A DNA stretch of 13,465 bases from a virus. The notes beneath the pieces were generated by a model. The model was not told where the DNA came from and did no database searches. It saw only the letters and a program-made list of their open reading frames with translations. The DNA lies in the UHGV virus genome UHGV-2124687. One strand, 5' to 3'. Every line of letters starts with the position of its first letter. The first letter of the stretch is position 1. Positions 1,806-4,259 of the stretch are shown here, piece by piece. The position numbers were made by a program, and so were the translations under genes.

Positions 1806-1991
1806 TCAGCGTAAAAATTCGCTAATATTAACCCTCTGGTCGTTAACTATTTTGGTCATTACTTTGATGAAACACATATCCAGCACCGCTTCATCTTTGT
1901 ATTTTTGAACGCCGGTTATATCAGCCACAGCTTTTTTATATTCAGCTTCAGCTGTGCGCCGGACAATATCTTCTCTGGTAAATTTAACCAT
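1806..1991 (-). CDS. Hypothetical early-left protein (61 aa)
   Basis: The internal ATG at 1991 (MVKFTREDIVRR...) overlaps the stop of the upstream gene (AATGGTTAA), which suggests translational coupling. The longer track ORF (to 2063) would overlap the upstream gene by 80 nt. I recognise no family. Confidence 0.5.
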   Translation of the reverse strand: MVKFTREDIVRRTAEAEYKKAVADITGVQKYKDEAVLDMCFIKVMTKIVNDQRVNISEFLR

Positions 1992-2178
1992 TGGCACGCA
2001 CCATCCTGAGTAAAGATTCCGTGTGATCGAGAGCTGCCTTCTGTTGTTCGTAAAGTGCTTCAAGTTCAGTTGTAAGGCGGTCGCGAAAAACAGGAACGCT
2101 TAACTGATAAATAAAATTATTTACTGAGCTTTCCACATCAGGATCCTCGTCCGGTATAACTGGCTGTGAATTTTTCAT
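1984..2178 (-). CDS. Hypothetical acidic early-left protein (64 aa), first gene of the leftward operon
   Basis: ATG at 2178-2176 (MKNSQPVIPDEDPDVE...) is preceded by GGAGGG (2187-2182). Upstream in-frame starts of the track ORF (to 2244) fall inside a terminator hairpin. I recognise no family. Confidence 0.5.
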   Translation of the reverse strand: MKNSQPVIPDEDPDVESSVNNFIYQLSVPVFRDRLTTELEALYEQQKAALDHTESLLRMVRANG

Positions 2179-2190
2179 AAACCCTCCGGT

Positions 2191-2220
2191 AAAAAAGGTG
2201 CCCATTGTGGGAGATGGGCA
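2191..2220 (-). terminator. Intrinsic terminator immediately upstream of the first leftward gene
   Basis: Read on the minus strand: TGCCCAT-ctcccaca-ATGGGCA (7-bp stem, 2220-2199), then CC and TTTTTT (2196-2191). It ends 3 nt before the SD of the 2178 gene. Confidence 0.6.
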
Positions 2221-2255
2221 AAGACCACGCGGCACACACAGCAATTAATCACATC

Positions 2256-2321
2256 TGCAAGCGCACTCCGCCTGTTTCACGCCTGTCACCCATAACTGGT
2301 AAGTGAAGGAGTGCGCTTGCA
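2256..2321 (-). promoter_or_regulatory. Long perfect hairpin (14-bp stem) in the leftward leader
   Basis: TGCAAGCGCACTCC (2256-2269) is the exact reverse complement of GGAGTGCGCTTGCA (2308-2321). The 38-nt loop can form an extra inner stem of about 7 bp on the minus-sense RNA. No U-tract follows on either strand. Confidence 0.5.
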
Positions 2322-2333
2322 TGTTGCGCCCTG

Positions 2334-2383
2334 AAAAAGGCTGGCGGTTACCGGAAATACACGGGAAAACACCGGGCCGCCAG
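2334..2383 (-). terminator. Second (upstream) intrinsic terminator on the leftward strand
   Basis: Read on the minus strand: CTGGCGG (2383-2377) pairs with CCGCCAG (2347-2341), with an inner CCGG/CCGG pairing. CC and TTTTT (2338-2334) follow. Confidence 0.5.
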
Positions 2384-2545
2384 AACAGGGGTCTACTTCT
2401 TATTGCTTTAGCCTGCTTTTAACCACATCAGGCGCGGTGGATCCTGCTATTCCCCAACAGTCAGGAATGCGATAATCTGGACATCCGAGGTAGATTGATC
2501 AGATGGTCAATCATCAGCCAATTCAATTGCAAAGGCACATCGACC

Positions 2546-2809
2546 ATGGTTTCACTTATTCGAAATAAAGGTAATACATCCACGGGTGTGCACATGCTTC
2601 AAAGGTCTGGCAAGCAATTCAAATTCCGCTGCGATATGGATACTTTGAAACGCCTGACATCTAGAAGCGTCAAACCAGAATTTGAGTATCTTTTTCGTAA
2701 GCGAACTGATGGCGTTTATCATTCAGAACTTTTTGATTCAATTGAAGAAGGAAAAATTGTTCTTTGTCAGTTTGTTCAAAGAGTTACTGGAGAACCATGT
2801 ACCGCCTGA
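2546..2809 (+). CDS. Orphan hypothetical protein (87 aa from ATG 2546; track ORF starts at TTG 2495) between the leftward operon and the repressor gene
   Basis: This is the only sizeable ORF in the AT-rich stretch 2495-3050. It runs opposite to both neighbours. A good plus-strand terminator follows 54 nt downstream. The SD is weak, so the start is uncertain. I recognise no family. Confidence 0.4.
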   Translation: MVSLIRNKGNTSTGVHMLQRSGKQFKFRCDMDTLKRLTSRSVKPEFEYLFRKRTDGVYHSELFDSIEEGKIVLCQFVQRVTGEPCTA

Positions 2810-2862
2810 ATATTGGTTAACTCAGCTACCTATGATCAGAATGTCCAGATTATTAAAGAGCG

Positions 2863-2892
2863 AAGCGTCCAGTAGGGCGCTTTTTTGTTTTT
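2863..2892 (+). terminator. Intrinsic terminator of the 2546-2809 transcription unit
   Basis: AAGCGTCC-agta-GGGCGCTT forms an 8-bp stem with one G-U pair, followed by TTTTTTGTTTTT. Confidence 0.7.
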
Positions 2893-3053
2893 GGCCCTGT
2901 ATCGCCAGGGTAAGCGGAACATTTGATTCTGAGTAATCACTGCGTGTGGTTACTTGATGGAATAAGGTTAAGATTGCTAACCAAGTTTGGCAAGTTGTTT
3001 TTGGTAATAAAACTAAACAAAAGAGACGTAAGAAGATAACTTACTGAAAAAGG

Positions 3054-3461
3054 TTATTTTTTTTCTGTTCGTTTGCGGGCTTTTAGGAGTTCTTCGAAGA
3101 GCTGGTTGAAGTTTTCAACTCGAGCCCGGAGATTTTGGATTTGAGCTTGTTGCTCTGATTCTGGCAAAGAGCGATAGAGCTCAAGCATCTCTTGTTCATC
3201 AACGCTTAAAGTTCTCTGCTCTTCAATTGAGACTGGTTCTGCAGGAGTCTGGTCTTCATCACCAAACAAAATCCAAGTAGGGCTGCACTGGAGCACCTTA
3301 GCAAGTGCATGCAGGTTCTTACCTGAAGGCTCTGTGTTGTCACTTTCCCATAGCGAAATAGTGGCGTGCGATATCCCGAGAGCTTTTCCAAGATCTCGCT
3401 GCGTTAACCCAACATCTTTGCGTCGACGTAATACTCGACGACCTAAAGTTTCACTATTCAT
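3054..3461 (-). CDS. CI-like prophage repressor, HTH (XRE/Cro-CI) domain only, no S24 peptidase domain
   Basis: 135 aa. The N-terminal part (LRRRRKDVGLTQRDLGKALGISHATISLWESDNTEPSGKNLHALAKVLQCSPTWILFG) is a classic XRE HTH. The remaining ~65 aa are a charged helical tail (…EQQAQIQNLRARVENFNQLFEELLKARKRTEKK). There is no room for a LexA-like autocleavage domain and no matching motifs. The gene is divergent from a cro-like gene. No SD precedes the ATG. Confidence 0.8.
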   Translation of the reverse strand: MNSETLGRRVLRRRKDVGLTQRDLGKALGISHATISLWESDNTEPSGKNLHALAKVLQCSPTWILFGDEDQTPAEPVSIEEQRTLSVDEQEMLELYRSLPESEQQAQIQNLRARVENFNQLFEELLKARKRTEKK

Positions 3462-3543
3462 GTTTAGATATCTTAATTCTTCTTGACTAAAGAATTCTCA
3501 CCAAATAACCTTGTTAAATAAACTCAACAAACGAGGTTGCTTA
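3462..3543. promoter_or_regulatory. Divergent PRM/PR-type promoter-operator region
   Basis: 82-bp AT-rich spacer between divergent repressor genes. It contains the perfect palindrome AGATATCT (3466-3473). It also contains the dyad AATTCTT-N8-AAGAATT (3475-3496), which encloses a consensus-like -35 TTGACT (3483-3488). I could not place the -10 elements confidently. Confidence 0.5.
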
Positions 3544-3783
3544 ATGTACAAAATTGATGCCGTGAAATTTTTCGGCACAAACACTCAAGTGGCACATGTT
3601 GCTGGCGTCGACCGCTCTGCTGTAAGTCAATGGAAAGAACTTGTTCCCGAGCGCTGTGCTCAGCGTCTCTCTGATGCCTCAAATGGCGCACTCATCTACG
3701 ACAAAGACGTTTATGACCGTTACCGCCAGGCCAAACGCCTTGGTAAACAGAATACCTGCATAACCAAGAAGGAATCTGATTGA
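3544..3783 (+). CDS. Cro-like / YdaS-family DNA-binding protein
   Basis: ATG 3544 with GAGG 7 nt upstream. The 79-aa product (MYKIDAVKFFGTNTQVAHVAGVDRSAVSQWKE-LVPERCAQRLSDASNGAL...) matches the YdaS/Cro pattern (..AVSQW....vP..ra..ie..T.G.l). It sits opposite the CI-like gene. Confidence 0.65.
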   Translation: MYKIDAVKFFGTNTQVAHVAGVDRSAVSQWKELVPERCAQRLSDASNGALIYDKDVYDRYRQAKRLGKQNTCITKKESD

Positions 3784-4259
3784 TGAAAATCAACGAGATT
3801 AAATTGCTGGCCATCGAGCTGGAAGAGTGGGCGATGAAGGATGGCAGGAAAGGGGGCTGGAAAAAGATAGTCCCGCTGATTACAGCGCATCACTACGGTG
3901 ATTTGCTGGACAGCCTGACAGATATCGTGGACCCGTCAGAGTATGTGCGCCGCCTGCATAACAACACGCAGATCATCCAGCGGGCATTTCGAAATGACAC
4001 ACCGAACTATCGTGGCCAGGCAGCTGCGCTGGCGCCAGCAATCAAAGCTGCGATGGATGCAGAGCTGGCTGGTCAGCATGACTTACATAACCTGGTGGCC
4101 ATTGCGAACCGCGAGTGCATCGAGGCGACCAGTGCAGTGCTGACTGGTAAGCCAATGCAGGTAATCCGCAAAGAAACGGCAGAGGCAATTCAGGCTCTGG
4201 CCGATCTCATCCCCGGCGTCAGCATTCAGTTCAACCATATTGGTCCACGCGCGGCGTAA
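3783..4259 (+). CDS. YdaT-like protein (CII-position regulator)
   Basis: ATG 3783 overlaps the cro-like stop (TGATG). The 158-aa product lies directly after a YdaS-like gene, as in Rac ydaS-ydaT. Its size and position match the YdaT family, which has been reported as a CII functional analogue. The family assignment is from memory only. Confidence 0.45.
   Translation: MKINEIKLLAIELEEWAMKDGRKGGWKKIVPLITAHHYGDLLDSLTDIVDPSEYVRRLHNNTQIIQRAFRNDTPNYRGQAAALAPAIKAAMDAELAGQHDLHNLVAIANRECIEATSAVLTGKPMQVIRKETAEAIQALADLIPGVSIQFNHIGPRAA

What the first reader, a model, noticed from the sequence alone, without database searches (positions are those of the whole stretch)
2495..2892. Self-contained orphan gene at the repressor-proximal hotspot where lambdoid phages carry exclusion or defence genes
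An AT-rich unit sits between the leftward operon and the CI-like gene. It has one ORF (87-104 aa depending on the start), oriented against both neighbours, and its own strong terminator (2863-2892). This is the position of rexAB in lambda and sieB in P22 and Rac, that is, lysogen-expressed exclusion or defence functions. I recognise nothing about the protein (…KQFKFRCDMDTLKRLTSRSVKPEFEYLFRKRTDGVYHSELFDSIEEGKIVLCQFVQRV…). Its SD is weak, so coding status is not certain. The overlapping track ORF 2682-2936 contains the terminator and is probably spurious.
Basis: inference. Interest (0 to 1): 0.5.

Follow-up and report, generated by a model that had tools for sequence, protein, structure and literature searches.

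The report
Prophage cargo gene in early-transcript leader
The flagged ORF is a real, conserved 87-amino-acid gene of unknown function, one of at least seven interchangeable "cargo" genes that enterobacterial prophages carry backwards inside the leader of their leftward early transcript; a defence role is plausible but untested.

Summary
An AT-rich unit lies between the leftward genes and the CI-like repressor, with one conserved ORF and a strong terminator (2862-2893). The true start is ATG 2546 (87 aa, basic). Homologues share 52-86% identity and the same length. Synonymous sites are saturated while pN is 0.15-0.36, so the gene is under purifying selection. No Pfam, PHROG, PADLOC, NCBIfam or PDB sequence match exists.

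The AlphaFold model is confident (pLDDT 90.5). All three fold searches rank AP2/ERF or phage HNH-AP2 DNA-binding domains first, but below significance.

The position is not that of rexAB. The candidate pL promoter (2993-2965, minus strand) lies between the repressor and the unit, so the gene sits antisense inside the pL leader.

The same slot occurs in 118 other complete phage loci with at least seven unrelated cargo families. It is always flanked by a covarying inverted repeat. On the pL strand it is preceded by a hairpin and a consensus boxA, the order seen in rRNA operon leaders.

Most likely this is a lysogen-expressed accessory gene encoding a small DNA-binding protein. Whether it excludes phages, silences host defences or regulates its own prophage is open.

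The parts
2412..2471 (.). Conserved leader block on the left of the cargo slot. It is shared by slots that carry unrelated cargo.
   Evidence: Homology with L006 and L013 starts at 2412/2417. It is near-invariant across 57 unique loci. The SfIV equivalent is present, unannotated, in 1112 of 5426 complete E. coli genomes.
2448..2476 (+). Candidate weak sigma-70 promoter of the cargo gene: TATTCC/TTCCCC, then extended -10 TGcGATAAT (2468-2476). The predicted start is about 2483-2486.
   Evidence: It is the top plus-strand PWM hit upstream of the ORF, and the top or near-top hit at the same aligned position in L022, L009 and SfIV. The strict consensus scan did not flag it. Inferred, not shown.
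2472..2505 (.). Left arm of the inverted repeat that brackets the cargo. The core is 2472-2484, ATAATCTGGACAT.
   Evidence: 13-nt perfect inverted repeat. It extends to about 25 pairs in the predicted leftward RNA fold. The arms covary across cargo types.
2546..2809 (+). The cargo gene: an 87-aa basic protein (pI 9.4, 10.1 kDa) with the invariant motif G-N-x-S-T-G-x-H-M-L-Q.
   Evidence: Homologues and alignment. Purifying selection. AlphaFold pLDDT 81.6 and 90.5 with the same topology.
2822..2853 (.). Right arm of the inverted repeat. The core is 2841-2853, ATGTCCAGATTAT.
2850..2862 (-). boxA-like sequence CGCTCTTTAATAA on the leftward (pL) transcript. It sits directly between the hairpin and the 5' arm of the repeat.
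   Evidence: It is the only match in the window. L006, L013, SfIV and E. coli 1943 carry the full consensus GCTCTTTAACAA. The order matches the rrn leader fetched for comparison.
2862..2893 (+). Intrinsic terminator of the cargo gene: GAAGCGTCC-AGTA-GGGCGCTTT followed by TTTGTTTTTG. The hairpin is weaker on the other strand because a U.G pair there becomes a C.A mismatch.
   Evidence: Conserved in all slot loci.
2965..2993 (-). Candidate pL promoter: -35 TTGCCA (2993-2988), 17-nt spacer, -10 TAACCT (2970-2965).
   Evidence: It is the best minus-strand PWM hit in 2880-3060. It shares its -10 with the candidate pR, TTGACT-17-TAACCT (read). Homology with the heteroimmune loci L007 and L008 ends at 2959-2965. 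SfIV has a consensus pL at the equivalent place.
3054..3461 (-). CI-like repressor, 135 aa, HTH only with no S24 peptidase domain. It converges on the cargo gene.
   Evidence: Pfam HTH_3 at 1e-15 and Phage_CI_repr at 5.6e-7.
1984..2178 (-). First called gene of the leftward early operon (64 aa, acidic, not N-like).
   Evidence: Gene calls in L001 mapped by the offset 5455. No Pfam hit.

Best explanation
The unit 2412-2893 is a genuine accessory gene cassette (a moron).

Shown:
- It encodes an 87-aa basic protein from ATG 2546 and ends at its own strong terminator.
- It is one of at least seven unrelated, interchangeable cargo genes that fill a conserved slot in enterobacterial lambdoid prophages.
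- The slot lies downstream of pL, on the opposite strand, inside the untranslated leader of the leftward early transcript.

Inferred:
- In the lysogen pL is repressed, and the cargo is transcribed from a weak promoter that overlaps the left repeat arm.
- On induction, convergent pL transcription runs antisense through the gene and silences it.
- The slot's frame serves the pL transcript. A hairpin plus consensus boxA would recruit host Nus factors, so that RNA polymerase crosses 0.35-0.8 kb of untranslated antisense RNA without Rho termination. The flanking repeat would form a leader-trailer-type helix that loops the antisense cargo out, as in rRNA operons.
- The protein is a small sequence-specific nucleic-acid binder with an AP2/ERF-like sheet-plus-helix core carrying a helical insert. 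It acts in the lysogen as a transcriptional blocker on foreign or host DNA, most likely for the benefit of the lysogen against other phages.

My confidence by step: real gene 0.95; cargo slot inside the pL leader 0.85; lysogen expression 0.6; DNA binding 0.45; anti-phage role 0.3.
For: Real gene:
- Eight homologues of 85-88 aa at 52-100% identity.
- Saturated pS against pN 0.15-0.36; dN/dS is 0.12 for the one unsaturated pair.
- Only this frame is open in all homologues.

Cassette boundaries:
- L006 (96.7% identity) and L013 (68%) share exactly 2412/2417-2889.

Slot:
- 118 complete slots with 76 unique fillings, all with the ORF on the plus strand.
- Cargo families are unrelated to each other.

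Position relative to pL:
-.

Terminator and strand asymmetry:
-.

boxA and rrn-like order:
-.
- rrn elements are described in PMC10250234.
- boxA protecting long untranslated RNA from Rho is shown in PMC7665894.

Repeat covariation:
- True arm partners are more stable than mismatched partners in the variable part (-13.3 vs -10.5 kcal/mol, p=0.00025).
- The leftward-strand duplex is more stable in 30 of 43 pairs (p=0.001).
- The long-range helix appears in both the MFE and centroid folds of the leftward RNA.

Fold:
- AlphaFold pLDDT 90.5 with topology b-b-a-a-b-a.
- Foldseek-PDB top hit is ERF1 (1gcc).
- Foldseek-BFVD top hits are phage HNH/AP2 proteins.
- hhalign against real AP2 domains gives the predicted register with score 21, above all 60 column shuffles.
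- The protein is basic, pI 9.4.

Precedent:
- Prophage AP2-domain proteins that silence genes during lysogeny are described in bioRxiv 10.64898/2026.02.23.707548.
Against: - No promoter passes the strict consensus scan upstream of the ORF, and the Shine-Dalgarno is weak.
- There is no expression data.
- Neither this protein nor its slot-mates match a known defence family.
- The family is tiny, with 11 representatives among 1.84 billion, and is absent from cultured phage genomes.
- Distant homologues sit on plasmids and in a chromosomal island outside any such slot, so the function is not tied to pL.
- G.U counts do not distinguish the strand on which the repeat pairs, 56 vs 56.
Confidence: 0.4

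Rival explanations
1. Anti-defence or host-silencing factor. The protein binds specific sites in host genes, such as a CRISPR-Cas or restriction locus, and blocks their transcription during lysogeny. This protects the prophage or its relatives rather than excluding them. It would work like the CasPR proteins of Bacillota prophages.
For: - AP2-like fold lead.
- CasPRs are AP2-domain DNA binders needed to inhibit CRISPR during lysogeny.
- Distant homologues (33% identity) lie on Klebsiella IncFIB plasmids about 2.4 kb from psiA, in an accessory region.
Against: - CasPRs need a CapR zinc-finger domain that is absent here, and they are largely confined to Bacillota.
- AP2 homology is unproven.
- The plasmid homologue is oriented opposite to psiA.
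- No target site is known.
Confidence: 0.2
2. Regulator of its own prophage. The protein binds in or near the pL leader and modulates leftward early transcription or the lysis-lysogeny decision.
For: - The position is at the head of the leftward early operon, both here and in the unrelated resolvase-type phages L017 and L018, where it diverges from the early operon.
- It is a small basic protein.
Against: - The slot, its repeat and its leader are the same whatever the cargo, so they are not this protein's operators.
- The 5' UTR specific to this cargo is not conserved among homologues.
- The identical protein serves four different immunity types.
- Homologues occur outside prophages.
Confidence: 0.15
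3. Relic of a homing endonuclease. The gene is the surviving DNA-binding domain of a free-standing HNH-AP2 homing endonuclease, persisting as selfish or neutral cargo.
For: - The best viral structural matches are HNH or homing endonucleases.
- The NTS(T)G motif resembles the NTSG motif of phage AP2 domains.
Against: - Strong purifying selection over saturated synonymous divergence, with constant length.
- No nuclease remnant is adjacent.
- Exchange boundaries coincide with the conserved slot flanks rather than a homing site.
Confidence: 0.08
4. Not a protein gene. The conservation reflects the antisense pL leader RNA or chance.
For: Weak Shine-Dalgarno, no consensus promoter, and overlap with a transcribed leader.
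Against: - A threefold excess of third-position changes.
- pN is far below pS.
- The frame and length are kept at 52% identity and in unrelated genomic contexts.
- AlphaFold gives a confident compact fold.
Confidence: 0.03

Closest known systems
Lambda rexAB and Salmonella BTP1 bstA (defence genes at the repressor locus)
   Same: They are accessory genes next to the prophage repressor, in the cI-N mosaic hotspot. They are expected to be expressed in the lysogen (PMC8585504).
   Different: rexAB and bstA are co-oriented with cI, lie upstream of pL and share the repressor's promoter. This gene converges on cI, lies downstream of pL in the pL leader, and needs its own promoter. There is no sequence similarity.
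sieB of P22, lambda and Rac (superinfection exclusion)
   Same: It lies inside the leftward early transcription unit but is oriented against it, with its own expression signals (established knowledge of P22/lambda sieB, from memory).
   Different: SieB is a membrane protein of about 190 aa located beyond N. This protein is 87 aa and hydrophilic (GRAVY -0.5). It sits before the first early gene and has no SieB or other Pfam match.
Morons (independent promoter-gene-terminator units in lambdoid prophages)
   Same: A single gene of deviant base composition with its own terminator, inserted between conserved phage functions and exchangeable among phages.
   Different: The insertion site is a fixed, structured slot. 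It is framed by a covarying inverted repeat, with a boxA on the opposite strand, and is never found empty in the collections searched.
AP2/ERF DNA-binding domain, including phage HNH-AP2 modules and CasPR anti-CRISPR repressors
   Same: The predicted core is an antiparallel sheet packed on a long helix. AP2 domains are the top match in three fold searches. An NTS-x-G motif precedes the first strand.
   Different: There is no Pfam AP2 hit. A helical insert of about 25 residues lies between strands 2 and 3. There is no HNH or CapR partner domain. The similarity is statistically inconclusive.
rRNA operon leader (boxB hairpin, boxA, boxC, leader-trailer helix)
   Same: On the leftward strand there is a hairpin, then consensus boxA, then the 5' strand of a long-range helix. 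The partner strand lies beyond a large looped-out segment (PMC10250234).
   Different: The helix starts immediately after boxA rather than 18-19 nt later. The boxC sequence UCUGUGUGGG is absent. The loop is the antisense of a protein gene, not a structural RNA. Function is untested.

Membership tests
Moron (autonomous accessory transcription unit in a prophage) | Own transcription terminator | tested here: met
   9-pair stem plus T-run at 2862-2893. dG is -16.1 and 0 of 200 shuffles fold as well.
Moron (autonomous accessory transcription unit in a prophage) | Own promoter | tested here: inconclusive
   There is only a weak, positionally conserved candidate, TGcGATAAT at 2468-2476. The strict scan found none.
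Moron (autonomous accessory transcription unit in a prophage) | Present or absent, or replaced, between conserved flanks in related phages; deviant composition | tested here: met
   At least seven alternative cargo families lie between the same flanks. GC is 0.39 against 0.476.
Moron (autonomous accessory transcription unit in a prophage) | Expressed from the repressed prophage | not testable with these tools
   No transcriptome data for a lysogen are available here.
Repressor-operon defence genes (rexAB, bstA type) | Co-oriented with cI and transcribed from the repressor promoter, between cI and pL | tested here: not met
   The gene converges on cI. The candidate pL lies between it and cI.
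Repressor-operon defence genes (rexAB, bstA type) | Sequence membership in a known defence family | tested here: not met
   PADLOC gives 0 hits for 15 family members. Pfam, PHROGs and NCBIfam give none that are meaningful.
SieB-type exclusion | Membrane protein homologous to SieB | tested here: not met
   No Pfam hit. The protein is hydrophilic, GRAVY -0.5.
AP2/ERF DNA-binding domain (PF00847) | Match to the family profile | tested here: not met
   No AP2 hit for any of 15 members at E<=10.
AP2/ERF DNA-binding domain (PF00847) | Profile-profile similarity to bona fide AP2 domains | tested here: inconclusive
   hhalign score 21, P 0.002-0.006, probability 6-15%. The register is as predicted, and 0 of 60 column shuffles reach the score.
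AP2/ERF DNA-binding domain (PF00847) | Three-stranded antiparallel sheet packed against a helix | tested here: inconclusive
AP2/ERF DNA-binding domain (PF00847) | Sequence-specific DNA binding | not testable with these tools
   This needs EMSA or ChIP-seq.
rrn-type antitermination leader | Consensus boxA (GCUCUUUAACAA) on the transcript | tested here: met
   11 of 12 positions match in the window. 12 of 12 match in L006, L013, SfIV and E. coli 1943.
rrn-type antitermination leader | Hairpin upstream of boxA and a long-range leader-trailer helix downstream | tested here: met
   The order was verified against the fetched rrn leader. The helix is predicted and covaries.
rrn-type antitermination leader | boxC (UCUGUGUGGG) 18-19 nt after boxA | tested here: not met
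   The arm UCUGGACAU follows boxA with no spacer (PMC10250234).
rrn-type antitermination leader | Nus-factor binding and resistance to Rho | not testable with these tools
   This needs reporter fusions in nus and rho backgrounds.
Invertible DNA switch | Both orientations of the segment between the inverted repeats occur | tested here: not met
   All 76 unique fillings in 118 slots are in one orientation. Junction searches in the genome and metagenome collections had no power, because the normal junction was also absent.

The most novel reading that the evidence does not exclude
Enterobacterial lambdoid prophages carry a dedicated "antisense cargo socket" built into the pL leader. An rRNA-operon-like hairpin, boxA and leader-trailer helix let the early transcript cross, and perhaps excise, a backwards-facing accessory gene. 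This lets prophages swap lysogen-expressed genes freely. The 87-aa protein here would be the first member of a new AP2-like family of DNA-binding silencers delivered through that socket.
Probability: 0.2. Interest if true: 0.75.

Novelty: new variant of a known kind. Interest (0 to 1): 0.5.

Why it matters
Repressor-proximal hotspots in prophages have already yielded RexAB, BstA, Nun and SieB.

This site is a distinct, structurally framed version of such a hotspot. The leader element is found in about 20% of complete E. coli genomes and is unannotated there. It holds at least seven families of small proteins with no known function.

If the cargo genes are lysogen-expressed defence or anti-defence factors, the conserved flanks give a simple sequence handle for harvesting new ones.

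If the hairpin, boxA and helix frame works as inferred, it would be a phage use of the host rRNA antitermination and folding machinery without an N protein. It would also explain how an antisense gene can be tolerated inside an early leader.

Tried and rejected
- **Family searches for the protein.** Pfam, PHROGs, PADLOC and NCBIfam found nothing meaningful for 15 members. The PDB sequence profile gave only a chance-level ThiS-like hit at E 0.03.
- **Repeat-protein match.** The 689-aa FG-GAP-like protein P0040 matches only the N-terminal motif and was judged spurious.
- **Alternative starts and frames.** The TTG 2495 start is not conserved. The overlapping ORFs are not open in homologues.
- **Rfam.** There were no hits at gathering thresholds. 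Only chance-level hits appeared in 2150-3100.
- **HK022 put RNA.** The HK022 pL region was fetched and no similarity was found.
- **Invertible switch.** No inverted copies were found. The public-collection junction scans had no power.
- **Empty slot.** None with arms 93 nt or less apart exists in IMG/VR.
- **The repeat as this protein's operator.** Rejected, because the same repeat frames unrelated cargo.
- **Strand assignment of the repeat helix.** G.U counts are equal on both strands. Only duplex energy favours the leftward strand.
- **Known defence functions for slot-mates.** None was found.
- **AFDB fold search.** The library was unavailable.

Full report
**Observation.** The window has an ORF at 2495-2809 on the plus strand. 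It lies between leftward genes (61 and 64 aa, 1806-2178) and a CI-like HTH repressor at 3054-3461. The repressor diverges from a P22_Cro/YdaS-like gene and a YdaT-like gene. A nine-pair GC-rich hairpin with a T-run follows at 2862-2893. Its dG is -16.1 kcal/mol and none of 200 shuffles folds as well. The ORF has GC 0.39 against 0.476 for the window.

**It is a real gene, and the start is ATG 2546.**
- A search of 5.8 billion proteins found eight cluster representatives of 85-88 aa with 53-100% identity. All align from the Met at 2546.
- The exact protein is annotated only as "hypothetical" in Citrobacter freundii and C. koseri.
- An exhaustive profile search of 1.84 billion representatives found only 11 proteins, so the family is small.
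- Among eight encoding loci, synonymous differences are saturated (pS 0.69-0.94) while pN is 0.15-0.36. Third positions carry two to three times the changes of first or second positions. The one unsaturated pair gives dN/dS 0.12.
- The 17-codon TTG extension and the overlapping ORFs (2682-2936 plus strand; 2461-2595 and 2552-2722 minus strand) are not conserved.
- The Shine-Dalgarno is weak (AAAGG, 11 nt upstream), but AAGGA or GAGGA occupies the aligned position in homologues.

**Where it sits.**
- The identical protein occurs in Citrobacter prophages at three chromosomal sites. It lies next to four different repressors: two 135-aa and one 138-aa HTH proteins and a 239-aa S24 type. It always converges on the repressor gene.
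- The 66-70% homologues do the same next to 217-aa S24 repressors.
- Pairwise DNA comparison fixes the boundaries. The heteroimmune loci L007 and L008 match the window from 1800 to 2959/2965 and then diverge. L006 (96.7%) and L013 (68%) share only 2412/2417-2889.
- Immunity-specific DNA therefore starts at about 2960, to the right of the cassette.
- The best leftward promoter in 2880-3060 is TTGCCA-17-TAACCT at 2993-2965. Its -10 is the same as the candidate pR, TTGACT-17-TAACCT, read directly.
- In Shigella phage SfIV, which has the same flanks, the scan finds an 11/12 consensus leftward promoter right after the cI terminator and before the hairpin.
- The gene therefore lies downstream of pL, antisense, in the leader of the leftward early transcript. 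This is not the rexAB or bstA position, which is co-oriented with cI and upstream of pL (PMC8585504).

**A conserved cargo slot.**
- SfIV and an E. coli prophage carry different rightward genes (144 and 166 aa) between the same flanks.
- A pattern scan of IMG/VR returned 120 loci. Together with the other loci held, this gives 118 complete slots and 76 unique fillings.
- They fall into at least seven unrelated cargo families of 87-175 aa. These include the present family, a two-TM family, a multi-TM family, a secreted family and a coiled-coil/CxxC family.
- None matches Pfam or PADLOC meaningfully.
- Every cargo ORF is on the plus strand. No empty slot was found.
- The left flank is unannotated and present in 1112 of 5426 complete E. 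coli genomes.

**The slot's frame: the inverted repeat.**
- A 13-nt perfect inverted repeat (2472-2484 and 2841-2853) brackets the ORF.
- The same repeat, usually AATCTGGATATCCCCAAC... and its complement, brackets every cargo. It covaries: GGACAT/ATGTCC here, GGGA/TCCC in L009, GGATGACT/AGTCATCC in L043.
- With the invariant core removed, true arm pairs are more stable than mismatched pairs (-13.3 vs -10.5 kcal/mol, p=0.00025).

**The slot's frame: the minus-strand order.**
- Read on the minus strand, the order is hairpin, then CGCTCTTTAATAA, then the 5' arm.
- That sequence is the only boxA-like match in the window. In L006, L013, SfIV and E. coli 1943 it is the full consensus GCTCTTTAACAA.
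- I fetched an E. coli rrn leader for comparison. It has a boxB hairpin, boxA TGCTCTTTAACAA, then the 5' strand of the leader-trailer helix, whose partner follows 16S (PMC10250234).
- The order is the same. The spacing and the boxC sequence are not.

**The slot's frame: which strand folds.**
- The leftward RNA 2960-2400 folds with the long-range helix in both the MFE and centroid structures (z -2.5).
- Duplex energies favour the leftward strand in 30 of 43 unique pairs (p=0.001). G.U counts are equal on the two strands, so the strand is not settled.
- The terminator hairpin is asymmetric. A U.G pair on the cargo strand becomes C.A on the pL strand. This fits strong termination of the cargo RNA and weak hindrance of pL.

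**Inference about the frame.** boxA recruits Nus factors, so the pL transcript survives a long untranslated antisense stretch. This has been shown for CRISPR arrays (PMC7665894). The helix would loop out the antisense cargo.

**The protein.**
- AlphaFold gives pLDDT 81.6 with 8 sequences and 90.5 with 15. The topology is the same in both: strands 18-21 and 24-30, helices 31-38 and 44-50, strand 57-59, helix 66-81.
- Foldseek against PDB ranks ERF1 first (E 1.7).
- Foldseek against viral models ranks phage HNH or AP2 endonucleases first (E 0.18 upward). All of these are below significance.
- The invariant motif GN-x-STG-x-HMLQ resembles the NTSG-x-KGV motif of phage AP2 domains.
- To test this I collected real PF00847 proteins, using a consensus recalled from memory only as bait. 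I aligned them and ran hhalign.
- The register is as predicted, with score 21, P 0.002-0.006 and probability 6-15%. This is above all 60 column-shuffled controls, whose maximum was 19.5.
- A plasmid branch (TGIRGVQRYG.MYRWRV) looks closer to AP2 by eye but scores no better.
- Membership in AP2 is therefore not established. "AP2-like nucleic-acid binder" is a lead, helped by pI 9.4.

**Other contexts.**
- More distant homologues (about 55-60% identity) sit at the head of, and opposite to, the early operon of resolvase-type phages.
- Others sit in a chromosomal island, on a 34-kb Atlantibacter plasmid, and on 46 Klebsiella plasmids near psiA.
- No cultured phage genome has the gene.

**Mechanism and rivals.**
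- Shown: it is a real gene and an exchangeable cargo in a framed slot inside the pL leader, with its own terminator.
- Inferred: lysogen expression from the weak promoter TGcGATAAT at 2468-2476, silencing by convergent pL transcription, and a DNA-binding product.
- The biological target is open. Options are exclusion of other phages (by analogy with hotspot genes), silencing of host defences, or self-regulation.
- The host-silencing option has a precedent in AP2-domain CasPRs that act during lysogeny (bioRxiv 10.64898/2026.02.23.707548).
- Self-regulation is disfavoured, because the frame is independent of the cargo.
- A non-coding reading is effectively excluded.

**Verdict.** The finding is sound as an observation and partly right in interpretation. 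The gene is an uncharacterised member of a known kind of element, a prophage accessory gene at the immunity-region hotspot. Its setting is unusual and apparently undescribed. Interest is moderate (0.5).

Noticed in passing
window 2411-2447: The conserved leader contains GCCTG..CCAC..CAGGC..GTGG. These are two interleaved short helices, a possible H-type pseudoknot. Compensatory changes occur in L042 (GCCTT/AAGGC and CCGC/GCGG) and in one pair of L006. The strand and function are unknown.
   Followed up: partly
window 2256-2321: A perfect 14-bp stem (TGCAAGCGCACTCC / GGAGTGCGCTTGCA) with a 38-nt loop lies in the leader just before the first leftward gene. It is conserved in L006, L009 and L010. 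No T-run follows on either strand.
   Followed up: no
window 2444-2460 and the 5' arm; most slot loci (e.g. L021 2534-2585): There is a direct repeat: TATTCCCCAACAAC upstream of the arm and TATCCCCAACAAC inside it. The 3' arm could therefore pair with either copy, giving possible alternative structures.
   Followed up: no
L021 (SfIV), L022, L023-L142: At least six other unrelated, uncharacterised cargo families of 98-175 aa occupy the same slot. Several have predicted membrane or secreted features, and one has a coiled coil plus CxxC pairs. None is in PADLOC or Pfam.
   Followed up: partly
L143 3001-3551 (E. coli Nissle 1917 prophage): The same leader (homologous to window 2322-2452) is followed by a leftward ClpX-zinc-finger-like gene instead of an antisense cargo. 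The leader therefore exists without the slot.
   Followed up: no
window 3054-4259: The repressor is a 135-aa HTH protein with no S24 peptidase domain. The divergent genes are P22_Cro/YdaS-like and YdaT-like, a Rac-type switch that would need an antirepressor or another induction route.
   Followed up: no
window 7782-10690: The late-early region carries apparent cargo: a YdcA-like gene, a CdiI_ImmP-like orphan immunity gene (8447-8821), an acetyltransferase (9091-9582, minus strand, interrupted by a masked N run) and a LysR regulator (9719-10690). In sister loci this stretch is replaced by IS elements or other genes.
   Followed up: no
L150 4989-5255 (Klebsiella IncFIB plasmids); L149 4980-5279: Unannotated distant homologues of the 87-aa protein lie on 46 Klebsiella plasmids, about 2.4 kb from psiA, and on an Atlantibacter 34-kb plasmid. 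Their N-terminal motif TGIRGVQ is closer to the AP2 signature.
   Followed up: partly
window 3038-3067: An AT-rich hairpin (ATAAC...GTTAT) with a T8 run lies on the plus strand and overlaps the stop codon of the repressor gene. The 10-mer CTGAAAAAGG also occurs at 2331-2340. It may be a back-up terminator protecting cI from rightward read-through.
   Followed up: no
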